Source: Acidobacteriota bacterium
Lineage (GTDB): Bacteria; Acidobacteriota; UBA6911
Length of the DNA: 64,000 nt
Direction: 5' to 3'
Assembly (NCBI GenBank): GCA_963664705.1
Contig: OY761556.1
Span: forward strand, 6,656,001-6,720,000
Shown: in pieces, positions 4,079-63,654 of the stretch
Layout of the letters: the number at the start of each line of letters is the position of its first letter
How positions within the stretch are numbered: position 1 is the first letter of the stretch
Notes under the pieces: model-generated
Told to the model about the DNA's origin: nothing
Databases searched by the model: none
The model's input: the letters and a program-made list of their open reading frames with translations, nothing else
Program-made: the position numbers and the translations under genes

Positions 4079-4112
4079 GGAATCTGAAATCTGGAATCTG
4101 GAATCTGGAATT
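4079..4112. repeat. Heptamer tandem repeat (GGAATCT)n
   Basis: GGAATCT GAAATCT GGAATCT GGAATCT GGAATT, intergenic; related copies near 45810-45843 and, inverted, 50371-50394. Confidence 0.8.
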
Positions 4113-4170
4113 CTGCCTGCCCTTCCCCTGAAGGCTTGCCAGGGTGGTAGACTTTAGAGAGGAGGCGACC

Positions 4171-25433: not shown

Positions 25434-25701
25434 TAACCGCAAAGACCTCGAAGACCGCAAAGAAAATATTTTTGAAGGCTTTGCGGCTATCATTCTCGCC
25501 AGATCATACGCCGGATTCCATCCTTGATGCTTCAACATTAGGCACCACTGACAAACGGACTCCAGCAATCCTGGCGCTGTATGGATTGCCACCGCTGAAT
25601 CGACAATATAATGCGCAACTTCTTTCCTATCCAGTACACTGTCTCATTGCCCAGCGGCAAATGAGCAAAAATCTTTGCGGTCTTCGCGGTCTTCGTGGTT
25701 C
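25434..25701. repeat. Inverted arrays of 9-mer repeats flanking about 210 bp
   Basis: AACCGCAAAGACCTCGAAGACCGCAAAGA ... TCTTTGCGGTCTTCGCGGTCTTCGTGGTT. Confidence 0.65.
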
Positions 25702-35031: not shown

Positions 35032-35234
35032 TCGTTAAGCTCGCTGAAAAGGAACAGGTATATCATGATCAAAGATAGAAAATGAAGCGCACATCGGGAG
35101 TATTCGACAGGAGATTCCAGGCACTGGAGGGGGGCCGTCTCTCCGGCAAGGTGTGTGGCTGCTTGCATGGTGCTGGCTGCCGGGACAGCTACGGCTGCAT
35201 ATTATTTGTTTGAATCCCTGGGACGCGAGCGAAG

Positions 35235-35422
35235 CACCAGGCCCGGAGGGCCGAAAGAGAGTAGCCGGAGGTGAGCGCTTTTTGCGAACCCCCGGTAGAG
35301 ATAAGCGCGAGAAAGAGCCCTGAAGGGACGAAAGATCGGCATTCTGCCGCCCCCTTTGGGGCTTGCTACTGGTCTAATCAAAATCCAGGCGTTCGCTGCG
35401 CTTCGCCCCTTCGGGCCTGGCG
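35235..35422. repeat. REP/REPIN/MITE-like palindromic element, copy 1
   Basis: Terminal inverted CCAGGCCCGGAGGG..GAA / TTC..CCCTTCGGGCCTGG; internal segments shared with 41124-41456. Confidence 0.7.
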
Positions 35423-35496
35423 CTTCACTCGCGCCGCAGAGCTCAGAACAATTAGCATGCGGCATTAGTCGGGGCGGCGGCGATTCCAGTGGGGAT

Positions 35497-45619: not shown

Positions 45620-45870
45620 GCGGCACCCCCGTGCGTAAATCCCGTCGCGGGAACTTCACAAGCAATGCAACTGATCGTGTCTTCTCAACAAGTTGAATCG
45701 GGTGGCGCCATTCTTACGGAGCCGCGGGGAAAAAGCAACACAAACCAAATTGGGTGTACGGCGAGCGCCGCCGTTCCGGCCGCATCGGTGTTGTGGAAGA
45801 CACGGTGTGTGGAATTTGGAATCTGGAATCTGGAATTTGCAATTCCGCACGTTCCCAGTCGGCTTCCTTC

Positions 45871-50263: not shown

Positions 50264-50476
50264 ATGCATGCCTCGCGTTCTCCCAGGTTCTGTTGAAAAA
50301 GCAGTTTGTCTCATACGCTGTGGTGAACGCAACTGGAATAGCGCCGGAGGTGCCGGCGTCGTCTTTTGCAGGATTTCAGATTCCAAATTCCAGACCACGA
50401 CTGGGGAGGATTTACTGGGAGATGGAAGCAGCCACGCTCTTGTCGGCGAGACGGCCGCGCACGCGGTGATTTATCT

Positions 50477-51976: not shown

Positions 51977-52053
51977 GCGCCCGTAGCTCAGCTGGATAGA
52001 GCGTTTGACTACGAATCAAAAGGTCGCAAGTTCGAGTCTTGCCGGGCGCACCA
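51977..52053 (+). tRNA. tRNA-Arg(ACG)
   Basis: GCGCCCG acceptor stem, D-arm AGCTCAGCTGGATAGAGC, anticodon arm TTTGA-CTACGAA-TCAAA, TTCGA T-loop, encoded CCA. Confidence 0.97.
52007..52051 (+). repeat. attL core (tRNA 3' part)
   Basis: GACTACGAATCAAAAGGTCGCAAGTTCGAGTCTTGCCGGGCGCAC, identical to 63370-63414. Confidence 0.95.
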
Positions 52054-52117
52054 CAAATCCTTGATTCTTCTGTAGTTGCCCATCTTCTGAAATCCGTAGT
52101 CCCTGGCCATAAGCACC

Positions 52118-52138
52118 TTGGGGGTTATTTGGGGGTAA
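52118..52138. other. Putative integrase arm-type binding site
   Basis: TTGGGGGTTATTTGGGGGTAA, identical at 61612-61632 and 63222-63242, variant at 63481-63500. Confidence 0.7.
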
Positions 52139-53212
52139 TCAGGCGGTTTTCGTCTTGTCTTTCGACGTAACTGCCAGCGAAGCTCCAAGCGCATTCATTG
52201 CCGCCCGGGTGTGCTCCGACGAGAGGTGAGCATATCTCAGTGTCATCTCAAAATCCTTATGCCTGAGAATTTCCTTCACGGTCGCGAGCGGAACTCCGCT
52301 CATGACCATGTGAGAGGCAGCGGTGTGTCTCAGTGTGTGGAATGTGACGTCTTCCAGCTTTGCCGCCTTGACAGCTTCCTCGAACTGCCGCTTGAGATCC
52401 CAGTAGGGCTGCCCTTTGATCTTCCCAGTGAAGACATAAGGAGAATCAAAGCGACGTGGAATGGATCGAAGAATCTCAACCGCTCTTTTGTCCAGCGGGA
52501 TGGTGGAATATTCGCCGTTCTTCTGGTCGAGGATTTCCAGATATTCCTGGCGAAGGTTGACATGCTCCCACTTCAGTCGAAAGACTTCGCTTTTGCGCAG
52601 TCCGGTGTGAAGTGCGAGCTCAATCATCTGCTTTAAGTCCGGAGTTGGACTGGCGTCCAGAAGAATGCTGCATTCTTCCGCGGTCAGATATCGCAACCGG
52701 CGATTGTTTTCCTTGAACTGCTTTACTCCGTGGCATGGATGGCTTTGGATAACCTTCCACTCAACAGCTTTGCTGAACAGATGCCGCAGACAAGCCATGC
52801 GGCGGTTGACCGTTGCCGGTTTGAACGGCAATTTGCGCCGGCTTTCTTTGTTCATCAGTTCAGCCTGGTACTTTTCAATGTCGGCACGTGTGATGCTGCT
52901 AAGCAAAGTGCCACTTCCGAATTGTGCTTTGATGCTCTCCAGATGAGACTCCTTGCTTTTGGCAGCTTTCTGGCCGATATCCTGGCACCATTGCGAATAC
53001 CGATCGGCGAATTGTCCGAGTGTGTCTTTGGAGACTCGTTTCTTTTCCAGGTATCGATCTTCATCAATGAGGGTCTGTATTTTCCTGAGATTTGTTTCAG
53101 CCATTTCCGGGGTAGCGCATGTTTCTCTTATTCGTACCCCTTTGAAGAACGTGTCTATCCTCCAGCGGTTGCCACGAGGCGCGATGCCAGGTGGTAACTT
53201 CTTTTTGCTCAT
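52139..53212 (-). CDS. int: Tyrosine recombinase (phage integrase)
   Basis: HTGLRKSE, QKNG, FHTLRHT, LRH, TLRYAH catalytic residues; adjacent to the tRNA. Confidence 0.96.
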   Translation of the reverse strand: MSKKKLPPGIAPRGNRWRIDTFFKGVRIRETCATPEMAETNLRKIQTLIDEDRYLEKKRVSKDTLGQFADRYSQWCQDIGQKAAKSKESHLESIKAQFGSGTLLSSITRADIEKYQAELMNKESRRKLPFKPATVNRRMACLRHLFSKAVEWKVIQSHPCHGVKQFKENNRRLRYLTAEECSILLDASPTPDLKQMIELALHTGLRKSEVFRLKWEHVNLRQEYLEILDQKNGEYSTIPLDKRAVEILRSIPRRFDSPYVFTGKIKGQPYWDLKRQFEEAVKAAKLEDVTFHTLRHTAASHMVMSGVPLATVKEILRHKDFEMTLRYAHLSSEHTRAAMNALGASLAVTSKDKTKTA

Positions 53213-53304
53213 ATTTGTATCTCTCCGTTGGTAAAGGATTGTCGATCAATAACATCCCTGGTTTAGGATGCACGTTCATTCATTGACACGGCTGTGTGGA
53301 GGTG

Positions 53305-53520
53305 TCAATTGGATTTTGGCTTGATCAATGCTCGTTCGCTTCTCCGGAATAAGACAAGGTATCGCCAAAAGTGCCCATTGGGATCCTGGAAGACGATGGC
53401 AGTTTCGGATTTCCAGACAATCCTGTGCACAAAATGACCATCCAAAATCAGGGCAGGGGAAACAGATTTCGTTACCTCGTGCCGGGCCAGATGGATTTTT
53501 GTCATCTCAAGAAAGCTCAT
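53305..53520 (-). CDS. Small hypothetical protein
   Basis: 71 aa between primase and integrase, same strand. Confidence 0.45.
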   Translation of the reverse strand: MSFLEMTKIHLARHEVTKSVSPALILDGHFVHRIVWKSETAIVFQDPNGHFWRYLVLFRRSERALIKPKSN

Positions 53521-53540
53521 GCTATTGATTCCTCAGGTTG

Positions 53541-53589
53541 CGAGAAAAGCGGGATAAGCGAGATAAGCCGCCTTTTCTCGCTTTTCACG
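53541..53589. repeat. 9-bp iteron cluster, putative origin
   Basis: CGAGAAAAG CGGGATAAG CGAGATAAG, then inverted CTTTTCTCG CTTTTCACG, at the primase 3' end. Confidence 0.65.
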
Positions 53590-55666
53590 CAGATTTCCAT
53601 ACGGTTAACGGCCTTCCTTTGGTCTGTTTGCTCTCTTTTGTCACTTTGCCCACGCGCAATAATATATCCAGAGCTAGATCTTTCTCGCGAGTTCGATGCC
53701 CTCCAAAAAGGCGCCCAATCTCATCGTCTGTCAGGGATCCATCCGCTGATTCCTGCAAGGCATCGATAATCCTATCCGCACACTGATTCCCGGTCTTGGT
53801 TCCGAAGACATAGCGAACTGATGCATCGCAATAGTCCCATACTGCTGTTGCCGCCTGGAGATGTTCAATGCGGATCACGTTGGAACAATCCATTAGCGCA
53901 TAAATCAGGCTCAGCCGAAGCACTTGTGCCTCTGCCCGATTCAATAATCCACCAGCCAACCCAGGTTGGCCTTCAGATAAAGGGAAATAGATTGTTTCCC
54001 ACATTTCATTTGCCGGCGTATTGCGGACGATCCTGCCGGCGTTTCGGGCAAGGATCACGGCTCGTTCCATCTGTTCCGTCAGGCTGTTCAGTATCTCAGG
54101 CGGCAACGCCGCGCCGTGTGGTAATGCTTTTGATCTTTTTGCCAGCAGCCACAGGAACCGATTGCCAAACCCATTGCTCTGTTCTGTCGCAGACAGACAT
54201 CGGATCAATTCGTCTTTTGTGGTATGCCCGATGATCGAGACATGAGCGCCAGTTGAGTGGATAGGATTGTTACGAGTGAGCGTGGAAAGATTTCCGCTGT
54301 CCCACGCTTGCCGGATAACTCCTGAAAGGCTGTTTCCTTCTCGCCCCATGATCTTCAGCATGTTGGAAAATTCCGACTCGATGCAAAACAGACGCTTGTC
54401 TGGTTCTCCGGAATCAACAATCTCCTCTTCATAGTCGATAATTCGCCCACCCCTTTTTACCGGGACGGTTTTCCTCAATTCATCTCTGACGTGATAGATG
54501 AGTCCCTCTCCAGATGACAGCCCGCAGCGGACTCTACCTTCGGACCACTTGCCGTCAATCCTGCTGAATATTTCCCTTGGTGTGCTCCAGGATGTTCCTT
54601 TCCTCCCTTTGGAAGATTCTCCAATCACCACGGCGAAAATCCGAGCTGGATGCAGGTCATTTTGCACGGCTGCGTGTGCGCTGGACCCAATGATGTTTCC
54701 AAACGCGGCTAACACATGGATGAGCACAGAGGCCGGATCCGCTTCAGTATATGGGTCTATCGCGCGGACAATATCGCCAGGCAATCCATATAGAGCTTCA
54801 GGAGCCAGAACTGGCCATGAAAGAACTGTCGGTTCATTTTTCTGGCGCATCGAAATGTAGGGAGTCTTTTCATATGGAGACCCCTTTTGCATATGCTGGA
54901 TCAATTGATCATAAGTGCCTCCAGCTTGAATCCAATCGGACACATCTCCCTTTTCCGGCAATCCAGGAAGCGTCACAATCCCGACTCGGTTAGCGATAGG
55001 CATCAGATTGCGGGCAACGTCTCTTGCATGCCGTTCACCTGGCTCATCGTTATCTGGAAATATGGTCACTTCTTTACCGGTGAACAATGAATTGAAGTCC
55101 GCCCTCCATTTGCCGGCTCCTCCCGGATTGCAGGTTGCGGGAATGCCAATTGACCAGAGATGATCAACGTCCTTTTCGCCTTCGACGACGCAGACCATCT
55201 TTGAATCTTTCCATTCCGGCAACCTGTAGGGCAACAGCTTCACGCCCTGCATGCATCCCTCACCGCCGATCCACCCGCTGCCGTCCGCTCGCTCCTGAAC
55301 GAATGTCTTGCCTATTTGCGTCTTGTATCTTTTCACCCGAAACAGAGGATCCCCGTTCTCATTTCTATACACATAATCACAAATAAACTCCCAGCTGTTT
55401 TTCCCATTCAGCAGCCCATGATCACGCAGCCAGGATGAGACCGCTTTCCGGTTATCGGGATGAAGGCCGGAAATAAACGCCGCCAGATCCCAGGCATTGC
55501 CTGATTTGCCACAGGGGCCGCAGAGCCAGCAGTTCTTTTCCGGATTGATTGAAAGGCTGGGATGTTGATCGTCATGGCGAGGACACCGAAAAAGCATCTC
55601 TCTTCCTAAATACCGTCCACCCAAAAGGGCAGCTGCACGTGCGATCTCTATGCATTGGAGGGTCAT
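53585..55666 (-). CDS. Primase-helicase: CHC2 zinc finger, Toprim, DUF3987-like P-loop domain
   Basis: CPRHDD.HPSL..CGPC; VVEGEKD, PDNDEPG; GESSKGRKGTS; start coupled (ATGA) to upstream HTH gene. Confidence 0.85.
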   Translation of the reverse strand: MTLQCIEIARAAALLGGRYLGREMLFRCPRHDDQHPSLSINPEKNCWLCGPCGKSGNAWDLAAFISGLHPDNRKAVSSWLRDHGLLNGKNSWEFICDYVYRNENGDPLFRVKRYKTQIGKTFVQERADGSGWIGGEGCMQGVKLLPYRLPEWKDSKMVCVVEGEKDVDHLWSIGIPATCNPGGAGKWRADFNSLFTGKEVTIFPDNDEPGERHARDVARNLMPIANRVGIVTLPGLPEKGDVSDWIQAGGTYDQLIQHMQKGSPYEKTPYISMRQKNEPTVLSWPVLAPEALYGLPGDIVRAIDPYTEADPASVLIHVLAAFGNIIGSSAHAAVQNDLHPARIFAVVIGESSKGRKGTSWSTPREIFSRIDGKWSEGRVRCGLSSGEGLIYHVRDELRKTVPVKRGGRIIDYEEEIVDSGEPDKRLFCIESEFSNMLKIMGREGNSLSGVIRQAWDSGNLSTLTRNNPIHSTGAHVSIIGHTTKDELIRCLSATEQSNGFGNRFLWLLAKRSKALPHGAALPPEILNSLTEQMERAVILARNAGRIVRNTPANEMWETIYFPLSEGQPGLAGGLLNRAEAQVLRLSLIYALMDCSNVIRIEHLQAATAVWDYCDASVRYVFGTKTGNQCADRIIDALQESADGSLTDDEIGRLFGGHRTREKDLALDILLRVGKVTKESKQTKGRPLTVWKSA

Positions 55667-55863
55667 GTCCGCCCGACCTCCCGTTGTTTCATCCACTTCG
55701 TCAGATCGGACGGCTTTACGCGAAAGACCCGTCGGCAGGCTCCCTGGGACACAATCACGCTTGGGATCTCGCCACTGGCAATCATCTGGTGGATCTTGCT
55801 TCGCCGGAGATTGAGGATTTCGCCGACTTCCTTGGGCCCCAAAAGTTTTTCAATAATCTCCAT
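55663..55863 (-). CDS. Excisionase/AlpA-like HTH protein
   Basis: 66 aa, LL..KEV..IL..S.I..M..GEIPS..RV..DL..W; AAGGAG RBS. Confidence 0.85.
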   Translation of the reverse strand: MEIIEKLLGPKEVGEILNLRRSKIHQMIASGEIPSVIVSQGACRRVFRVKPSDLTKWMKQREVGRT

Positions 55864-55889
55864 TGTTCCAGGCTCCTTGTGAGATGAAG

Positions 55890-56300
55890 TTAATGGCCTT
55901 CTGCTTCGAGCTTTTTCCGTATTGCCGCAGCCTCTTCTTTGGGTAGCCGGTGCAGGTTGTATCGTTCACTGTAGGTGAACTCGAAAACAGGCTTTGGCGT
56001 TTCCTGACGGGGCAGCAGCGGAATAAATCGCTCCTGGTGGGGCATTTGGGGACTATCCGCCTTATGTTGAATCGATAGAGTTTTTCTAGCCTCAGCATCC
56101 TTTCGAAAAAAATACACCTTGCGCCCACCGGATCGTGCTTTGACAAATTTTGCGATGGCTGCATGCTGAATGATCAGGCCGTGCCTCTCACGCAGAATGA
56201 CGGCAATTCGCCTGTAGGAGACAGGCGGCCGTTCGCTTCGCAAATCGCTGATTTCACTTTTGTATGGGATCAAGCTTGATTGAAATGGTTTTCCCGGCAC
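55890..56300 (-). CDS. Basic putative DNA-binding (HTH-like) protein
   Basis: GTG start after AGGA; SYRRIAVILRERHGL..I..FVK helix pattern; repeat array directly upstream. Confidence 0.65.
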   Translation of the reverse strand: MPGKPFQSSLIPYKSEISDLRSERPPVSYRRIAVILRERHGLIIQHAAIAKFVKARSGGRKVYFFRKDAEARKTLSIQHKADSPQMPHQERFIPLLPRQETPKPVFEFTYSERYNLHRLPKEEAAAIRKKLEAEGH

Positions 56301-56350
56301 GGGTTATTCCTTTCTGTTTCTGCAACATGGCGCTATGGAAAGAGGCAACA

Positions 56351-56456
56351 TGTCTCCGCTTTGTATCCGCTGTGTGTCCACTTCAGCGTTGAGGATGTAG
56401 AAAAGTGGAGACAGAGTGGAGACAAAGCGGATACAAGTCTCCACTTTGTCTCCACT
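56351..56456. repeat. Array of eight TGTNTCCRCT-type 10-mers, 11-bp period, mixed orientation
   Basis: Direct at 56351, 56362, 56373; inverted at 56404, 56415, 56426; direct at 56436, 56447. Confidence 0.85.
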
Positions 56457-57141
56457 CCATTGGGGCTCGATGGGATGCTTCGAGGTATTGCGTCTAGGAT
56501 TGGAAGGGACCAATCCTAGAATTTCCATCAAGGCTTCCGTGGCTAACCGGCAACATGTAACATCGAATGAATCGCGCTCGATAGACAGAAAAAGGTGGGA
56601 GACATTTCTTGTCACGGCAATCTCCAATTAATGGGAAAGCATTGGTTCTTCCACCACTCATAGACAACGAGCGGGAAAATGGCTCAAAACTTACCGGGCA
56701 TTTTTCCGTATTGTCCTTTTTATCCGTGGCTCATTGCCGAATACCGTTTTGATAAAGAGTGAATGCCGTTCCGACCACCGGTTGCAGCACGTCAGTTTAT
56801 GTACCAAGAAAGGTCGTCACGCTGTCTTTCCATGCGCAGAAAATCCAGGAAAGAGTATACAGGCGATTTGAGAACACTTTTGTGGATGGCGGCTCATGAG
56901 GCCGCGAAAGAGGCCATTTGCCGGGCCAATTGAACAATGGTGAAACATGGAGAATCGATATGAACAATCACCCGGACGCAGAATAATAAAAAAACAAAAT
57001 GCAATTACCTATTGACACATTAAAGAATAAATACTCTTTTTTTAACGATCAATGGTTCAAGAAGTCACCGGAACGAGTGACGATAATTGCCTTCTTGATT
57101 CTGCCTCATCATGTGAAAATGGAGTCAAATTGGAGGCGTGC

Positions 57142-57534
57142 ATGGCTGCGGGTGATCCCCAGAGAACGTGGTTCCCGGAGATGATCCAGAAATTGCGGTT
57201 AGAGTGGAATGAAAGCATGGCTATCCCGGATCTAGTGGCACTATGCGATTCATTAGATAGCATGCTTCATGAAATTCGCTCCACTCGAAATATTCGCCCA
57301 CCTATCGTGAAGTGTCCTAAATGCGGAAAGGTTGGACCTGCCGCAGAAAGACATGTGAGTGTTCGTGCCATGATTCTTTCGCTAAGCCGGTTCGACATCG
57401 TCGATTCGGAGCGTGTAAAAATATTAGAGAAAAAATGGGCGGCTTATCGTAAAGAAAACGGGCTCAATCTCTATGGCAAGGCTGAAACTGGCGAAGTCAG
57501 AATCAGAAGCTGTGTCGATTCCGAAGCCGAGTAA
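57142..57534 (+). CDS. Hypothetical protein with CPKC motif
   Basis: 130 aa; GGAGG RBS. Confidence 0.7.
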   Translation: MAAGDPQRTWFPEMIQKLRLEWNESMAIPDLVALCDSLDSMLHEIRSTRNIRPPIVKCPKCGKVGPAAERHVSVRAMILSLSRFDIVDSERVKILEKKWAAYRKENGLNLYGKAETGEVRIRSCVDSEAE

Positions 57535-57718
57535 TGCGTCGCAGAATAAAGCTCCTGAAGGGAACTTTCAGGTGGTAGGCGGTCCTCACGCAATTTTTGG
57601 CGTTTTATATAAGTTAGGGACCCGACTTTACATATTGGCGTTCTTTCCCCCAATCGGACTTATCGGGACCGGTGATTCTGATTAGTGTTTTCTATGCGGC
57701 TAGAGCTATGGTAGAGGT

Positions 57719-58099
57719 ATGAACCTTCTGAATCGTTCAGTTCTCGGCTTTTTGGTTTTTGCTATCTCCATATGCTTTGGGGCATTGCTTGCGTTCTCGG
57801 CCAGTTCCGTTTTTCGGATGCATCCTTTTGGGGATAAGACTTCGGTTTTGTTTCCAGTATTAGTAGGGATACCATTGGGCTGCGCGCTTGGAAGTGCCAC
57901 GAATCTAAAAATGCATAGACCAAAGATATATGAGAATCGCGGCATCCTGGTGGCGGCGGCGATTGTGGGAGCTTTGGGAGCAATGCTGTGCGTTGTTTTG
58001 GCTGATGCGCTTGAAGGCAAAATATTGCTCCTAAGCCCCTTCATTGTGAGCATCCTGTCTTTTGGAGCATTTTGCTTTTTAATTCATTCCAGGCCCTGA
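57719..58099 (+). CDS. Small 4-TM membrane protein
   Basis: 126 aa hydrophobic ORF; AGAGGT close upstream. Confidence 0.55.
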   Translation: MNLLNRSVLGFLVFAISICFGALLAFSASSVFRMHPFGDKTSVLFPVLVGIPLGCALGSATNLKMHRPKIYENRGILVAAAIVGALGAMLCVVLADALEGKILLLSPFIVSILSFGAFCFLIHSRP

Positions 58100-58259
58100 G
58101 ACAATTACCATTATGGCGTTCTCTCCCATATTCGGACTTCCTGGGACTTGTGTCTAGAAATATGTGATCTAAAATCAATTGTTTCACATCCTACAAGTCA
58201 GCTACAGTTTAGCCTTGGTCTGCGTCAGTTACGCAATTGCATTATGTGAGGGGCTGAAA

Positions 58260-59702
58260 TTGTCTGTCCAAGCGAAATGGTGCAAATTAGCGATGCACTG
58301 TATGGTTTTTACGTCCATACTGCATTATTCTGCTTTCAGTCAATCCGAAAGTAAGAACCCGATAGACAAGGCGCAATCCAGCGGTTCGTTCAATATTCAT
58401 GTGGATGTCGATTTAGTTACTACTGACGTGACCGTGACTGGAGCCGACGCGCCAGAATTTCAGGCCAGCGATTTTGCAATTTATGAAGACGATGTTTCTC
58501 AAAATCTAACCTACTTCTCTCGTGATCAACTTCCGATTGCAGTTGCGTTGTTGGTTGACAGCAGCGGCAGCATTGAAAAGCATCTGAATGAATTGCAAAT
58601 TGCGGCGCTGACTGCATTACGGCGTCTGAAAGCGGAAGATCAAGTCGCGCTCTATTCCTTTTCAGGCGGCTACAGGAAACTGAGCAACCTCACAGCTGAT
58701 CGATTGCATATAGCCAAATTACTCAGCCATCTCTCAATCATGGAAGGCGGGACTGATATATTTTATGCACTCCAGGATGCAACGCGTTACCTAAAAAGGG
58801 CAGCTCCGCATCATCGCAGAGCGATTATTCTTATTTCCGACAATTGCCATGCCAATGGCAAAGCCAGGCCCGACAAAATGCTGAATGAGTTGCTGGAAAG
58901 TGCCACCACGCTTTATGATATTGTAACTCCCAGCGACCATAGTGACTTGCCTTACTGTTTGATGACGGATCCCGCCATAAGAAAAATTTCTGCCGATTCC
59001 GGCGGTGAAATTGTGGATGTAAGAAACTCGATGTCGCTCAAAGGAGCATTGGGAAAAGCTATATCCAGAATTCGAATGCAATACACTTTGGGTTTCAATC
59101 CATCTGATCCCAGCCCAAAGGGGACATATCATAGATTAAAGGTCCGCTTTGCCGATGAGAATCGTTGCCGAACATGCAGAATTATCGGACGTAGCGGATA
59201 TTATTCAGGAGCATCGTTATCCGTTGCAGTTTCCGGCAAGACACAAGAAATAGCGCCACCTCACTCGACAGACTCTGATCAGCAGTTGTTGCAGAGAATT
59301 ATCCTTATTGCAGGGACATCTTCGCCAGAATTTCGTGAAATTCCATTCACGGTTACAACTGAAAAGCAAACAGCTCTCAGTGGAAAAAGAGAGGTTAAAC
59401 TTGATTTGCGGATTAATCCTTCTGAAATAGAGTTTCAGATTTCCAAGGGAAAACGAACCTACAAAGTGGTTGCAGCCATTCTGCACGCAGATGCGAAAGG
59501 AGAGATAAAAGGCTGCGAATCGTGGGTACTTGAAGATCAGCTTAGCAGGGAGGAATTTGATCGCATAATTAGGGACGGAATTCATGTAACTACTACGGTC
59601 AATTTGGAGCCACAAAATCAAATGCTAAAAGCCGTAATTTATGATGAAAACAGCGGCAAACTAGGCAGTGGATTTGTTTTTGGCTCTTACGGCGAGCGCT
59701 GA
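58260..59702 (+). CDS. Secreted acidobacterial VWA domain protein (island cargo)
   Basis: MIDAS DSSGS, GGTD, LISD, QYTLGF, RSGYY; start uncertain (58179-58293). Confidence 0.82.
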   Translation: MSVQAKWCKLAMHCMVFTSILHYSAFSQSESKNPIDKAQSSGSFNIHVDVDLVTTDVTVTGADAPEFQASDFAIYEDDVSQNLTYFSRDQLPIAVALLVDSSGSIEKHLNELQIAALTALRRLKAEDQVALYSFSGGYRKLSNLTADRLHIAKLLSHLSIMEGGTDIFYALQDATRYLKRAAPHHRRAIILISDNCHANGKARPDKMLNELLESATTLYDIVTPSDHSDLPYCLMTDPAIRKISADSGGEIVDVRNSMSLKGALGKAISRIRMQYTLGFNPSDPSPKGTYHRLKVRFADENRCRTCRIIGRSGYYSGASLSVAVSGKTQEIAPPHSTDSDQQLLQRIILIAGTSSPEFREIPFTVTTEKQTALSGKREVKLDLRINPSEIEFQISKGKRTYKVVAAILHADAKGEIKGCESWVLEDQLSREEFDRIIRDGIHVTTTVNLEPQNQMLKAVIYDENSGKLGSGFVFGSYGER

Positions 59703-59729
59703 TCACAACCATGATGGGAGGCATTCCCA

Positions 59730-60956
59730 ATGCGAGAAGCTGATATTTCGTTAAAAAATAACCGGATTTTAATACTTCTGATAATTGGAATCGTTTTTGT
59801 TTGCTTTTCAGTGCGTGTGAATAGCAGAGAGAATCAGATTCAATCTGTGGACAGGGTGCAACAGTCCAGCGGGCCGGATGGAGATGCAAAAATCCGAGTC
59901 TCCGCTAAAGAGATAAGATTTGATGCTGTAGTTTTAGATAAGAGCGGCCATCAAGCCATTGATCTAAAATCAGCTGATTTTGATATCTATCAAGATAATA
60001 AGAAGCAAACAGTCAATTCATGCACTTATATCGCCCATAGGCCAATCCATCTTGCAGTGCCAACTCACGTGTCAAAGGGATCAAAGACGGAGTCAATGAT
60101 AGCTTCTTCCGGACTGAGCGGCGTCGATACTCGACGAAAGATAGTCTTTTTCCCAAACTATCCCGCTATGACCCTCAAGCAAAGTCATGAGACCCAGATG
60201 TTTATTAAGAAGTTTATTGAGGACGAAATGCAGGAAGGGGATCTGGTCGCGATCACAATGAATCCGCAGGGCGATACGGAGTCGCAGATCTTCAGCTCTG
60301 ATAAAGCTTTTGTTCTTTCCGTGCTGACCCAGGGTAAATGGTGGAGCGGGCCACAACAGAATATGGAAGGGTATGGCTTGCCACTTAGTAATTGTATTCG
60401 TAAATTACAAAATATTCCCGGCCGCAAATCGTTAATAGTAATCTCACCTGAGCCGGCGTATTTGGCCGGCTACGTATACCAAGTAATATCCCCTGAATTA
60501 TTAGAGAAGATGCATGAAGTACCGGCTGATGCCGCTTTCCGGGCCGGAGTTGTCATTCACATAATAGATATTAGCGAACCGAAAAAACTTGATGCGATTG
60601 ATCACACTTTTTCTTCAGCTGGGAGTATTAGTGCTGCGGAAGAAGCAAACATGATTCGCCATGAACTCGCGAGAAAAAGTGCTGAGTCTCAATTTCCTTT
60701 GGCAAAAAGAACCGGAGGCCTTTTGGCCAAGAATTTATCAGCAAAAACAATGGAAAACATAAAGGAACAATTAGGCGGTTATTACCTGCTAACTTATACT
60801 CCGGAAGAGAGCACTTTCACTCCTCCCCCAGACTTGAGTAGGAGGCCTCCCTATCGCAAGATAAAAATCAAAGTGAAGCGATCAGGTATGGAAGTATATG
60901 CGCGAGATGGTTTCTTTGGAGTGCCATCACGCGAGAACACTGTAACGGGGAAATGA
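59730..60956 (+). CDS. Secreted acidobacterial VWA-related protein, degenerate MIDAS (island cargo)
   Basis: N-terminal TM/signal; DAVVLDK.G..DL...DF.IYQD, PGRKSL, TGG, YYLLTY.P, ARDGFF; GGAGG RBS. Confidence 0.78.
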   Translation: MREADISLKNNRILILLIIGIVFVCFSVRVNSRENQIQSVDRVQQSSGPDGDAKIRVSAKEIRFDAVVLDKSGHQAIDLKSADFDIYQDNKKQTVNSCTYIAHRPIHLAVPTHVSKGSKTESMIASSGLSGVDTRRKIVFFPNYPAMTLKQSHETQMFIKKFIEDEMQEGDLVAITMNPQGDTESQIFSSDKAFVLSVLTQGKWWSGPQQNMEGYGLPLSNCIRKLQNIPGRKSLIVISPEPAYLAGYVYQVISPELLEKMHEVPADAAFRAGVVIHIIDISEPKKLDAIDHTFSSAGSISAAEEANMIRHELARKSAESQFPLAKRTGGLLAKNLSAKTMENIKEQLGGYYLLTYTPEESTFTPPPDLSRRPPYRKIKIKVKRSGMEVYARDGFFGVPSRENTVTGK

Positions 60957-61166
60957 TTTCCTCATTTCTGACCCTTTAAAAACCGCATTTTTGTCTTAAG
61001 TCCCAAGAAACGGCATTCGAGGAAACTACTCTGGCTTTGCAACAGTGGCGGATTCCATTTTTGCTGGCAGCTAAGTTTCAAGCTTTGAAAGATGACGCTT
61101 TTGTGGAATGATCTCTGGAATCGCTTCTAATCTTATAGTCCATGAAATTACTTGGCCTAAATTCGA

Positions 61167-61216
61167 GACGCACTAAACACGCAGAATTTACGCACCATCG
61201 GCGCACCAAGCACGCA
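61167..61216. repeat. Five (A/G)CGCA-core repeats at 11-bp period
   Basis: GACGCAC, CACGCAG, TACGCAC, GGCGCAC, CACGCAT at 61167, 61178, 61189, 61200, 61211. Confidence 0.7.
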
Positions 61217-61308
61217 TCCGGATAAATGCCCTTCCGGAAACTTGAATTCTAAGGCGAAGCCTTAGGGATGGTGTCTTACTACAGATATTTCCACAAGCAG
61301 CAACACCT

Positions 61309-61391
61309 CACCGGACCATACCCTGACAAACACCGGACAAGCGCCGGACACCGAACAGACGTCGAACAACAGTCGAACAAACACCGAACAG
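61309..61391. repeat. About eight CACCG(G/A)ACA-type repeats, mostly 11-bp period
   Basis: CACCGGACCA, CACCGGACAA, CGCCGGACA, CACCGAACAG, CGTCGAACAA, AGTCGAACAA, CACCGAACAG. Confidence 0.75.
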
Positions 61392-61531
61392 TAGATATCC
61401 AGAATGCCTTCTCTGTGCGTATTCTGATCTGCGTTCTGATAAAGGTTGATAGAGAACGCAAGCTGAACAATGGGGTACTAGTGGATCGATGATTGAGGCT
61501 CCGACCGGTGCTCAGTCATTCATAGCCCAGA

Positions 61532-61632
61532 CTTTTCTCGCTTATCTCGCTTTTCTCGCATGCCCGGATATTTTGAATTGTTCCCGCGATGTCGGAATTA
61601 CTTGAAAATTCTTGGGGGTTATTTGGGGGTAA
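61532..61632 (+). repeat. Imperfect ~100-bp direct repeat, copy 1 (three iterons plus arm site)
   Basis: CTTTTCTCG CTTATCTCG CTTTTCTCG ... GAAAATTCTTGGGGGTTATTTGGGGGTAA; homologous to 63139-63242. Confidence 0.85.
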
Positions 61633-61642
61633 ATATCGATGT

Positions 61643-61663
61643 TTATTTATTTACAATAAATAA
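61643..61663. promoter_or_regulatory. Inverted repeat in the abiE promoter, candidate AbiEi operator
   Basis: TTATTTATT-TAC-AATAAATAA overlapping a TTTACA -35-like hexamer. Confidence 0.55.
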
Positions 61664-61684
61664 CAAATATGTTAATTATTATAT

Positions 61685-62326
61685 ATGAAATATGGATCGC
61701 TGGTTGAGCTGGTTGGCTCCATGGAATGCTTCGATCTGCAGCTGCTTGTGCAGGCATTCGCTGAACCGCGAGAAATTATCCGGGTGCAGTTGTCCCGCTG
61801 GATCAGCGACCACAAGGTAATCAGTCTGCGACGCGGAGTTTATACGCTCCCAGACACCTATCGCCGCGTATCTATCGTGCCGGCAAGACTGGCGAATCAA
61901 CTCTATCACCCATCTTATCTGAGCGGCTTGTGGGCTTTGGGTTACTACGACATGATCCCCGAAAGAGTCGTATGGTTGACGAGCGTAACTCCTCGGGTGC
62001 CCCGTCGTTTTGACAATTCTCTTGGCATTTTCGATTATCGCAGCATTAAACAGAAGGCGTTTTTCGGATCTGTAACCGCACCCTACGGCGATCGGTCCAT
62101 ATTGGTTGCGGAACCTGAGAAAGCGCTACTGGATCATTGGCATCTCACATCGGGTGAGTGGACTGCAGAACGCCTTGAGGAAATGCGCTATCAGCATTGT
62201 CGGCAGGTGAATAGGGACAAGCTTCAAGCCTATGCAGATCGTTTCCAAAGCCCGCGCTTATATCGAGCAGCCGAACGCTGGCTGACGGTAACAGCCGAAG
62301 AAGAGAAAGGCACGGTTACTCTATGA
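61685..62326 (+). CDS. abiEi: Type IV TA antitoxin, AbiEi-like
   Basis: LSRW...LRRGVY, PSYLS...AL.YY.MIPE, AEPEKALLD; overlaps toxin start (ATGA). Confidence 0.88.
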   Translation: MKYGSLVELVGSMECFDLQLLVQAFAEPREIIRVQLSRWISDHKVISLRRGVYTLPDTYRRVSIVPARLANQLYHPSYLSGLWALGYYDMIPERVVWLTSVTPRVPRRFDNSLGIFDYRSIKQKAFFGSVTAPYGDRSILVAEPEKALLDHWHLTSGEWTAERLEEMRYQHCRQVNRDKLQAYADRFQSPRLYRAAERWLTVTAEEEKGTVTL

Positions 62327-63129
62327 GGGATCAGGCACTGGCACTTGCACGTGGAGCAAAAGATCCGGGGCAGGCGCTCAACCTGCTGCGAGAATATCTC
62401 CAAACGCTTGTCCTGCGATCATTTCATGAGTGTGAGGCATTTCGTAATCTGGCGTTTGTCGGCGGTACAGCGTTACGCTTCCTCCATAATCTGCCGCGTT
62501 TTTCTGAAGATCTCGATTTCTCGATGGTGTCTGAAAAGGGCTATGCCGGCATGGAGTGGATGTCGAAAGTCAAACGTGATTTGTCTCTGGCAGGATTCGA
62601 TCCCCACCTCACCTGGAATGATCGCAAGGTTGTTCATACAGGATGGATCCGGCTGGCAGGGCTGCTTTATGACGCCGGCATTTCCGGAGTGCCGGACCAG
62701 AAGCTGGCCATCAAGCTGGAAATTGACACTCGTCCACCGGCTGGGGCAATCTGCGAAAGAAGCATCATTACCCGTACCGTGACTTTTTTTGTCCAGCATT
62801 ACGATCTGCCGTCCATGATGGCGGGCAAGCTTCATGCTGCAATTACACGAAAATATGTCAAAGGCCGCGACTGGTATGATCTCCTGTGGTACAGGACGCA
62901 ACGTCCGCCAGTTGAACCGAACATTAATTTGCTTCAGAAGGCTTTGGATCAAACTCATCGTTCAGCCAAATACAATGCCCATGCGTGGCAAAGCTTGGTG
63001 AGTGATCGTCTGGCGTCAATCAGCATCAAAGATATTACCGGCGACGTTTATCCATTTTTGGAACACCCTCAGGATGCCGCACTCCTTACGCGGGAAAATC
63101 TGTCTGGTTTATTTTCAGTTCAACATTGA
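62323..63129 (+). CDS. abiEii: Type IV TA toxin, AbiEii/AbiGii nucleotidyltransferase
   Basis: FVGGTALR, RFSEDLDF, KLEID, KLHA, KGRDWYDL. Confidence 0.92.
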   Translation: MRDQALALARGAKDPGQALNLLREYLQTLVLRSFHECEAFRNLAFVGGTALRFLHNLPRFSEDLDFSMVSEKGYAGMEWMSKVKRDLSLAGFDPHLTWNDRKVVHTGWIRLAGLLYDAGISGVPDQKLAIKLEIDTRPPAGAICERSIITRTVTFFVQHYDLPSMMAGKLHAAITRKYVKGRDWYDLLWYRTQRPPVEPNINLLQKALDQTHRSAKYNAHAWQSLVSDRLASISIKDITGDVYPFLEHPQDAALLTRENLSGLFSVQH

Positions 63130-63138
63130 GGTTGCGCC

Positions 63139-63242
63139 CTTATCTCGCTTTTCCCGCTTTTCTCGCAAGCCGGGATAAGCTTGAAGTGCCCCTTGCGATG
63201 CTGGAATTTGCCGGAAAATTCTTGGGGGTTATTTGGGGGTAA
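63139..63242 (+). repeat. Imperfect ~100-bp direct repeat, copy 2 (three iterons plus arm site)
   Basis: CTTATCTCG CTTTTCCCG CTTTTCTCG ... GAAAATTCTTGGGGGTTATTTGGGGGTAA. Confidence 0.85.
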
Positions 63243-63369
63243 TTGGGAGGCAAAAACAGCTTTTGGTGAACAAGATGGACAAATCAAATATCCTAATTAC
63301 AGCTAATAACCATGAGGGTGCGACGCATATTCTTGATTTATCTGGATTTATGAAAAATGCTCCTGGAGG

Positions 63370-63414
63370 GACTACGAATCAAAAGGTCGCAAGTTCGAGT
63401 CTTGCCGGGCGCAC
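63370..63414 (+). repeat. attR core (45-bp duplicate of tRNA-Arg 3' part)
   Basis: Identical to 52007-52051; lacks the tRNA 5' half. Confidence 0.95.
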
Positions 63415-63438
63415 TCTAACCCCTTCAATCCTCTTAAC

Positions 63439-63654
63439 TTAAGCACCCGGTTCAATTCGCAACTCCTGTTCATGCTGTCCTTGGGGGCTATATGGGGGCA
63501 GTTGTGCTGTTTTTGCCTCTTCTTTGGGTTTCACTTTCAAAGCTTTACTCAATGCTTCCAATGCTTCTTGCCGATGTTCCGGTGATAGATGCGAATATCT
63601 CAGGGTTGTTGAATAATCCTAGTGTCTGAGGATTTCCTTCACCGTGTGCAGATC
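63439..63654 (-). pseudogene. C-terminal remnant of a second tyrosine integrase
   Basis: Minus strand reads DLHTVKEILRH*DYSTTLRYSHLSPEHRQEALEALSKALKVKPKEEAKTA versus intact PLATVKEILRHKDFEMTLRYAHLSSEHTRAAMNALGASLAVTSKDKTKTA; in-frame TAG at 63619-63621; homology lost upstream. Confidence 0.85.

What the first reader, a model, noticed from the sequence alone, without database searches (positions are those of the whole stretch)
61532..63242. AbiE cassette bracketed by a duplicated iteron-plus-arm-site module
Seen: abiEi-abiEii lies exactly between two imperfect ~100-bp direct repeats. Each has three 9-bp CTT(T/A)TC(T/C)CG iterons and ends in the identical 21-mer TTGGGGGTTATTTGGGGGTAA, which also occurs just inside attL. 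Inference: the element's right arm has been duplicated around the defence pair, making a swappable cassette that could be gained or lost by recombination between arm copies, or a scar from fusion of two related elements. This would be a way to exchange defence cargo at the attP arm.
Basis: partly seen in the sequence, partly recalled or inferred. Interest (0 to 1): 0.75.

Follow-up and report, generated by a model that had tools for sequence, protein, structure and literature searches.

The report
Fusion scar around AbiE defence genes
The two ~100-base repeats around the abiE toxin-antitoxin pair are real: the outer one is the normal right end of a small tRNA-integrated mobile element, and the inner one is likely a cut-off leftover from the fusion of two related elements rather than a purpose-built swappable cassette.

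Summary
The repeats are real (86/105 identical; the 21-mer occurs 3 times, 0 expected). Copy B is the ordinary right arm of an 11.4-kb tRNA-Arg element: iteron triplet, ~53 bp, tandem 21-mer, ~130 bp, tRNA core. Twenty-two further modules were found; 15 run on to a tRNA core. In the 20 outside this lineage the neighbouring gene varies and is toxin-antitoxin/defence-like in 15, so the cargo slot is real but needs only one arm. Copy A stops at the 21-mer and has no core. One related contig has the same A-abiE-B layout, with A decayed (80/101, second half-site lost) and B kept (102/104). Six close abiE relatives have no flanking modules; two sit just outside a tRNA-Arg(ACG) att core. Another genome shows module-core-cargo-truncated module. 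No A-to-B deletion and no other cargo between two modules without a core was seen. Best reading: tandem accretion followed by loss of the inner core (0.6). The arm-site call is supported by position, covariation and a predicted lambda-like N-domain. In passing: the element has no relaxase but two oriT-like segments matching TrwC elements.

The parts
51977..52053 (+). tRNA-Arg(ACG), integration target; attL core 52007-52051
   Evidence: ARAGORN; 45-bp identity with 63370-63414
52118..52138 (+). Left 21-mer (tandem 10-bp repeat), likely arm-type site, directly after the integrase stop codon
   Evidence: same position in related elements
52139..53212 (-). Tyrosine integrase, 357 aa, R-K-H-R-H-Y residues present, predicted three-strand-plus-helix N-domain
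53539..53603 (-). Copy C: iteron triplet (53539-53567) plus two inverted units at the primase stop; likely replication origin
   Evidence: function inferred from position
53585..55696 (-). Primase-helicase (CHC2 zinc finger, Toprim, DUF3987), 703 aa
55663..55863 (-). HTH_17 excisionase-like gene
55890..56300 (-). 136-aa gene homologous (52% and 39%) to the genes beside the oriT-like segments of the host's two TrwC elements
56403..56553 (+). oriT-like segment 1 with 11-bp hairpin; homologous to DNA just past the 3' end of both host TrwC genes
   Evidence: oriT function inferred
58179..60956 (+). Two cargo genes: a VWA-domain protein and a 408-aa protein without Pfam match
61245..61281 (+). oriT-like segment 2: 7-bp hairpin plus conserved tail, found about 460-570 bp past other TrwC-like genes in 6 of 10 loci that hold it
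   Evidence: oriT function inferred
61532..61632 (+). Copy A: iteron triplet, 52-bp spacer, 21-mer; cut off after the 21-mer, no core
61643..61692 (+). Imperfect palindrome (18/25 here, perfect 50 bp in G039) over the abiEi promoter; likely AbiEi operator; abiE homology to relatives begins here
61685..62326 (+). abiEi antitoxin
62323..63129 (+). abiEii nucleotidyltransferase toxin
63139..63242 (+). Copy B: iteron triplet, 55-bp spacer, 21-mer; the complete right-arm module
63243..63414 (+). Conserved right-arm continuation and attR core (63370-63414, tRNA-Arg 3' part)
63415..63651 (+). Left end of an older island pushed downstream: arm-site variant at 63481 and integrase 3' fragment

Best explanation
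Copy B is the normal right arm of an 11.4-kb tRNA-Arg-integrated element, and copy A is likely the cut-off right arm of a related element, left behind when two islands that had stacked at the same tRNA fused and lost the attachment core between them. Shown: the module is the family's standard right end; A lacks the arm continuation and core; the layout is inherited and A has decayed in a relative; close abiE relatives occur without modules, twice just outside a tRNA-Arg(ACG) core. Inferred: an incoming element (oriT2-A-core) integrated in front of a resident mini-island (left junk-abiE-B-core); a deletion from the end of A's arm site to the abiE promoter removed the inner core; the integrase would now excise only between attL and the outer attR, so abiE travels with the element and would help keep it. 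A and B share only 29 bp of perfect identity, so loss of abiE by recombination would be rare and likely counter-selected by the toxin.
For: 24 distinct modules with the arm 42-55 bp after the triplet (23 at 52-55), 15 of the 22 non-window ones reaching a tRNA core about 200 bp after the triplet. A-B spacer identity 71%, against a median of 58% over 171 pairs, i.e. related but well diverged. L142 has the same layout: B 102/104, abiE region 93%, A 80/101 with the second half-site lost. G039: abiE 87% identical, 215 bp outside attR of a tRNA-Arg(ACG) element; G042: complete module plus tRNA-Arg(ACG) core, abiE 85% identical 2.4 kb further out. G041: tandem tRNA-Arg(ACG) cores, complete module-core-decayed left arm-TA-type cargo-second module cut right after the 21-mer. 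Integrase-less mini-islands tRNA-cargo-module-core exist (G040 L037, G042 L241). The window itself has an older island remnant stacked behind attR. Tandem accretion with CIMEs is described in PMC5704250 (passages).
Against: No abiE-B-core island without A, the predicted resident partner, was found: in G039 and G042 no module follows abiE. The four A/B rows form one branch in the best tree, though with support of only 80/41, which fits a duplication inside one lineage equally well. The window's A keeps a perfect 21-mer and a 29-bp run identical to B, which could reflect selection or gene conversion. The bases after A do not resemble a left-arm continuation. Only two lineages with the double module are known.
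Confidence: 0.6

Rival explanations
1. One-off gain by single crossover: a small circle carrying abiE and one module recombined into the resident module, giving module-abiE-module directly, with no inner core ever present; A has since decayed.
For: Explains the missing inner core without a separate deletion and the grouping of A with B in the best tree. Mini-islands with near-identical left and right 21-mers as direct repeats exist and could shed such a circle (G042 L241, G000 L001).
Against: No such circle or single-hybrid product was seen. L142 has about 115 extra unrelated bases after A that match nothing held, so at least one later deletion or insertion is needed anyway. Tree support is low.
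Confidence: 0.22
2. Maintained swappable cassette: the two modules are kept so that defence cargo between them is gained, lost or exchanged by recombination.
For: Direct repeats with 29 bp perfect identity flank a self-contained operon. The slot inside the arm does hold varied TA/defence genes. Identity to L142 is patchy along abiE (third-position differences 33/107 in the first half of abiEi, 2/88 at the end of abiEii), which suggests recombination near the right end.
Against: 0 of the 20 modules outside this lineage form a coreless pair around cargo; the second double-module contig has the same abiE and a decayed A. 0 of 6 close abiE relatives in genomes are bracketed. Cargo varies with a single arm.
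Confidence: 0.1
3. Copy A is kept as a working second iteron cluster or regulator site (a cis replication or excision-control element), and its position next to abiE is incidental.
For: The triplet is largely intact in A of both lineages; the same triplet marks the primase end in 5 elements; fixed 52-55 bp spacing to the arm site suggests a protein-DNA architecture. P4 crr, a repeated iteron block apart from ori, is a recalled parallel only.
Against: All other elements found do with one right-arm triplet. A diverges between the two lineages about as much as the noncoding DNA beside it (80/101 against 84%).
Confidence: 0.08

Closest known systems
Tandem accretion of ICE/IME with CIMEs (ICESt1 family; PMC5704250 passages; Pavlovic 2004 and Bellanger 2011 seen only as reference titles there)
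   Same: Related elements stack at one tRNA 3' end; decayed integrase-less islands keep att ends; composites can move as one and capture genes.
   Different: Here the inner att core is gone and only the inner arm (iterons plus arm site) is left; the host is inferred to be Acidobacteriota; excision was not tested.
Arm-type sites of heterobivalent tyrosine integrases (lambda Int; KplE1 IntS, PMC2951348 passages)
   Same: Tandem 10-bp direct repeats on both sides of the core (67 and 127 bp away), matching within an element; best fold match is full-length lambda Int.
   Different: Binding not shown; an iteron triplet identical to the primase-end one sits at fixed spacing outside the right arm site.
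iOriT elements: integrative elements with oriT but no relaxase (bioRxiv 10.64898/2026.01.13.699239, abstract and passages)
   Same: Integrase, att sites, oriT-like DNA shared with co-resident relaxase elements, defence genes near the oriT.
   Different: That survey covered six Pseudomonadota species and does not mention DUF3987 or primase; this element has two different oriT-like segments and its own primase-helicase.
AbiE type IV toxin-antitoxin (PMC3985639, PMC11062541 passages)
   Same: Bicistronic abiEi-abiEii, palindrome over the promoter, located on an integrative element.
   Different: Stabilisation and phage defence untested for this pair; bracketing by arm modules is not part of the described systems.
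Integrase plus DUF3987 helicase elements at tRNA genes (PMC11724360 passages)
   Same: tRNA-integrated, DUF3987 helicase, variable defence-type cargo.
   Different: Primase here is CHC2-Toprim fused to DUF3987, not a separate AEP; that paper does not mention iterons.

Membership tests
Integrase arm-type sites | Short tandem direct repeats on both arms, tens to ~150 bp from the core | tested here: met
   52118-52138 (67 bp from attL core) and 63222-63242 (127 bp from attR core); same positions in relatives
Integrase arm-type sites | Left and right sites match within an element and differ between integrases | tested here: met
   Window 21/21, G039 21/21 with its own variant, G000 tRNA-Arg(TCG) element 20/21 with a different sequence, G000 tRNA-Ala remnant 20/21. 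G040 C9 differs in the central bases between left and right.
Integrase arm-type sites | Cognate integrase has an N-terminal arm-binding domain | tested here: met
   Model shows three strands (10-32) plus helix (35-50), pLDDT about 74-84; top Foldseek hits are full-length lambda Int over about 350 columns; Pfam Arm-DNA-bind_2 only E 0.02, under cut-off; phmmer of the N-terminus against PDB found nothing
Integrase arm-type sites | Direct binding by the integrase N-domain | not testable with these tools
   needs EMSA or footprinting
Accreted ICE/IME-CIME composite | Related elements or remnants in tandem at one att site | tested here: met
   Older remnant after attR in the window; tandem cores in G041 and G042
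Accreted ICE/IME-CIME composite | Internal att (attI) between the two members | tested here: not met
   No tRNA core between A and abiE in the window or in L142; its loss is inferred, so this is filed as 'works like', not as a member
Accreted ICE/IME-CIME composite | Excision and transfer of the composite | not testable with these tools
   No attP joint listed in contigs; contigs cannot show rare circles
Recombination-swappable cassette between repeats | Different cargo between the same two repeats in relatives | tested here: not met
   Only L142 (and an X7 contig of the same type) has the coreless pair, with the same abiE
Recombination-swappable cassette between repeats | Deletion form with one hybrid repeat in the same lineage | tested here: inconclusive
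   No 61632-to-63243 joint in X2, X5, X6, X7, X8, X9; contigs drop rare variants and X6, X8 and X7 were read only about half
iOriT (oriT-only integrative element) | Integrase and att sites, no relaxase or mating-pair genes | tested here: met
   ORF inventory and Pfam/PHROG scans; TrwC search of the genome hits only two other places
iOriT (oriT-only integrative element) | oriT shared with a relaxase-coding element | tested here: inconclusive
   Two conserved hairpin segments at matching positions beside TrwC genes; nicking not shown; resemblance to MOBF nic motifs is recalled
AbiE type IV TA | abiEi-abiEii bicistron with promoter inverted repeat | tested here: met
AbiE type IV TA | Toxicity, antitoxicity, phage defence or element stabilisation | not testable with these tools
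   needs expression tests
Phage satellites (P4-like, PICI) | Capsid-redirecting or packaging genes | tested here: not met
   No PHROG match for the three unassigned backbone ORFs scanned; no backbone DNA match in 50,697 phage records apart from tRNA-Arg

The most novel reading that the evidence does not exclude
This family's right arm is a compound device, replication iterons fixed ~53 bp from the integrase arm site, that also serves as the anchor for trading toxin-antitoxin and defence genes; duplicated arms like A and B are working exchange cassettes in a relaxase-less element that hitch-hikes on two different TrwC conjugation systems.
Probability: 0.12. Interest if true: 0.62.

Novelty: new variant of a known kind. 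Interest (0 to 1): 0.35.

Why it matters
If the best reading holds, this is a clear snapshot of how a small integrative element captures an addiction/defence pair: islands stack at a tRNA, the inner core is lost and the cargo becomes fixed. That route is known in outline. What I did not find described is the right-arm module with primase-end iterons at fixed spacing from the arm site, the TA-rich slot beside it, and an oriT-only element with two oriT types in Acidobacteriota. These give testable sites for integrase, primase-helicase and relaxase binding in a little-studied phylum.

Tried and rejected
Viral scan with a degenerate 21-mer: 83 stretches, 80 listed; none had DNA similarity to the element and only six weak integrase hits at 22-30%. 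Plasmid search with 61500-63420: no match. Phage search with the backbone: tRNA-Arg only. Phylum-wide DNA search (401 genomes): only abiE homologues and tRNA cores outside the own genome; the module pattern occurs in 7 of 137 class genomes, all one genus. Sequencing runs: no RNA holder listed, no evidence either way. No A-to-B or attP joint in the contigs laid: weak, since contigs drop rare variants; X2 may be the source sample and X6, X7, X9 are one sample. A 60946-to-62509 joint in one X5 contig does not use the repeats, and about half of X5's pieces are only partly alignable, so I set it aside as probably chimeric. Idea that the triplet recurs at the right arm of all related elements: rejected; G039 and the G000 tRNA-Arg(TCG) element have other primase-end repeats and none were found at their right arms. 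Idea that the palindrome before abiEi is a dif/Xer site: dropped by eye (motif recalled), it matches the abiE promoter of unbracketed relatives; its folding z-score is -0.43. Promoter scan: 2 found, 2.0 expected, uninformative. Tree test of A+B as one clade: neither shown nor rejected. In the census script the 'continuation' flag was too loose and the 'core' hit for L265 is spurious; I read those columns from the sequences. Thirteen of its 37 rows (primase-end copies and triplets with no arm at 42-55 bp) were left out of the 24. Literature search for P4 crr/ori1 returned nothing, so that parallel is recalled only. Earlier-findings look-ups by place returned nothing. No supplements were read.

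Full report
Observation. The sequence shows two direct repeats, A (61532-61632) and B (63139-63242), with 86 identities in 105 columns and a longest perfect run of 29 bp. Each has three 9-bp units and ends in the same 21-mer, which also lies at 52118-52138; three exact matches against 0.00 expected. abiEi and abiEii between them are confirmed by PADLOC and Pfam. A third, inverted triplet (C, 53539-53567) follows the primase stop.

The element. It runs from tRNA-Arg(ACG) to a 45-bp copy of the tRNA 3' part at 63370-63414, 11.4 kb. It encodes a tyrosine integrase with its catalytic residues present, a CHC2-Toprim-DUF3987 primase-helicase, an HTH_17 excisionase-like protein and two cargo genes, one with a VWA domain. 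Behind attR lies the left end of an older island with an arm-site variant and an integrase fragment. Records carrying the same 21-mer are mostly titled Acidobacteriota (5 of 6), so the host phylum is inferred.

The 21-mer is likely an arm site. It is a tandem 10-bp repeat 67 bp from the left core and 127 bp from the right core. In G039 a different variant occupies both positions (21/21), and in a second G000 element at tRNA-Arg(TCG) yet another sequence does (20/21); a tRNA-Ala remnant in G000 has the window's version at both ends. In G040 C9 left and right differ in the middle. The integrase model has a three-strand-plus-helix N-domain and its best fold matches are full-length lambda integrase; the Pfam arm-binding match is weak (E 0.02). 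Binding is untested.

The module is the family's ordinary right end. Scans of related genomes and metagenome contigs gave 24 distinct modules with the arm 42-55 bp after the triplet, 23 of them at 52-55 bp. Of the 22 outside the window, 15 reach a tRNA core (Arg or Ala) about 200 bp after the triplet, 1 contig ends first, 4 follow the arm continuation for a stretch and then diverge, and 2 stop at the arm site. Some contigs are near-identical (L140 and L144, 98% in the spacer) and not independent. The pattern occurs in 7 of 137 class genomes, all one genus. For the 20 modules outside this lineage the gene just inside is Fic in 5, another AbiE subfamily in 3, Gp49/RelE-like or its HTH partner in 3, AAA_14-DUF4143 in 3 and DUF5615 in 1; the other 5 are HEAT, MFS, HATPase-like or unmatched. 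Calling those 15 TA/defence-like rests on general knowledge of the families. So the variable slot is real, and it works with one arm. In G033 L253 the order is oriT-like hairpin, two TA pairs, one module with longer spacing, core.

Copy A is a stump. It ends at the 21-mer; 10 bases later the abiE promoter palindrome begins. Metagenome contig L142 has the same layout: upstream DNA 84%, abiE to right arm 93%, B 102/104, but A 80/101 with the second half-site lost and about 115 unrelated bases before the promoter. A contig in run X7 shows the same junction type and the same letters beyond 63360 and may be the same strain. The double layout is therefore inherited, not an assembly error (a single X2 contig also spans 52022-63399), and A is not held to the B sequence. 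In a tree of 23 modules the two A rows pair (94/91), the two B rows pair (97/91) and A+B group with weak support (80/41).

abiE moves on its own. Six of 50 related genomes have AbiEii at 76-91% identity. None has the module directly beside abiE (five with upstream DNA, six with downstream DNA). Homology starts at the promoter palindrome and ends at the abiEii stop. In G039 abiE lies 215 bp outside attR of a tRNA-Arg(ACG) element; in G042 it lies 2.4 kb beyond a complete module and tRNA-Arg(ACG) core. G041 has tandem tRNA-Arg(ACG) cores with module, core, decayed left arm, TA-type genes and a second module cut right after the 21-mer, close to the intermediate that stacking predicts, although there it is the outer module that is cut.

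Mechanism. Most likely (0.6) an element ending oriT2-A-core integrated ahead of a resident island holding abiE-B-core, and a deletion removed the inner core. Tandem accretion with decayed islands is described in PMC5704250 (passages). With no core after A, excision would use the outer attR and carry abiE along; AbiE stabilised a plasmid in PMC3985639 and an ICE in PMC11062541 (passages). Against this: the resident partner without A was not found, and the tree fits an in-lineage duplication too. A one-off single crossover with a module-bearing abiE circle (0.22) gives the same product. A maintained swap cassette (0.1) predicts other cargo between two coreless modules or hybrid junctions; neither was seen, though contigs drop rare variants and patchy identity along abiE hints at recombination near the right end. 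A functional role for A's iterons (0.08) is not excluded.

The triplet. It sits at the primase stop in five elements (window, G033, G045, two in G040), at the position where a more distant primase has different inverted repeats. That points to origin iterons (inference). A binding site for the HTH_17 protein is the rival; KplE1 TorI sites include a block of three (PMC2951348 passages). The copy at the right arm is specific to this subfamily.

Mobility, noticed on the way. The element has no relaxase. Segment 56403-56553 matches DNA just past the 3' end of both TrwC genes of the host genome (76% and 83%), and the neighbouring 136-aa gene matches the genes beside those (52%, 39%). Segment 61245-61281 lies about 460-570 bp past other TrwC-like genes in 6 of 10 loci that hold it. 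Both form hairpins (z about -2). They are likely oriT copies for two relaxase types, which makes the element work like the iOriT class (bioRxiv 10.64898/2026.01.13.699239, abstract and passages); nicking is untested and the likeness to MOBF nic motifs is recalled.

Novelty and score. Accretion scars, arm sites, AbiE on integrative elements and oriT-only islands are known kinds. Searches found no description of this module or family; the library lacks most subscription papers. Verdict: observation confirmed, cassette mechanism not supported, fusion scar favoured; new variant of a known kind; interest 0.35.

Noticed in passing
window 56403-56553 and 55890-56300: oriT-like hairpin and adjacent gene shared with the two TrwC (MOBF) elements elsewhere in the same genome (G000:C1:5657835-5657985 and 6484514-6484594); potential helper and hitcher in one genome.
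   Followed up: partly
window 61150-61440: Second oriT-like hairpin (61245-61281) among short repeats (CGCACC, CCGGACA, CGAACA types); found beside a different TrwC lineage in relatives, and only once in this genome.
   Followed up: partly
window 56339-56447: 45-bp inverted repeat with GTGGAGACA units next to the first oriT-like hairpin; the host TrwC elements have analogous but different repeats there.
   Followed up: no
window 63415-63651 and beyond: Older island remnant stacked after attR: arm-site variant and integrase 3' fragment; a similar remnant follows attR of the G000 tRNA-Arg(TCG) element.
   Followed up: partly
L001 (G000:C1:5738438-5743917): Degenerate sister element between tRNA-Ala 3' repeats with one module, a Fic gene and a 1114-aa cargo gene, one of several tRNA-Ala 3' copies scattered over about 170 kb.
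   Followed up: partly
L002 (G000:C1:1332197-1351241): Intact related integrase element at tRNA-Arg(TCG) with its own arm 21-mer, a different primase and genes that look like a type I restriction-modification system (by eye).
   Followed up: partly
L240 (G041:C7:113700-124900): Tandem tRNA-Arg(ACG) cores with TA-type cassettes, a duplicated doc/Fic block, and a 27-bp repeat following both a decayed left arm and the truncated module.
   Followed up: partly
L239 and L246 (G040 C9, C18): Two decayed copies in which the primase end and triplet are joined directly to an internal integrase fragment.
   Followed up: no
window 53305-53520 (-): Small 71-aa ORF right after triplet C, conserved in position after the primase in relatives; no PHROG match.
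   Followed up: partly
window 60946-62509: One contig of run X5 joins these two places; not at the repeats and probably chimeric.
   Followed up: no
window 4090-4116, 45807-45848, 50368-50395; 25435-25700; 35176-35481: Intergenic TCTGGAA-type heptamer runs and longer inverted repeats in host DNA outside the element.
   Followed up: no
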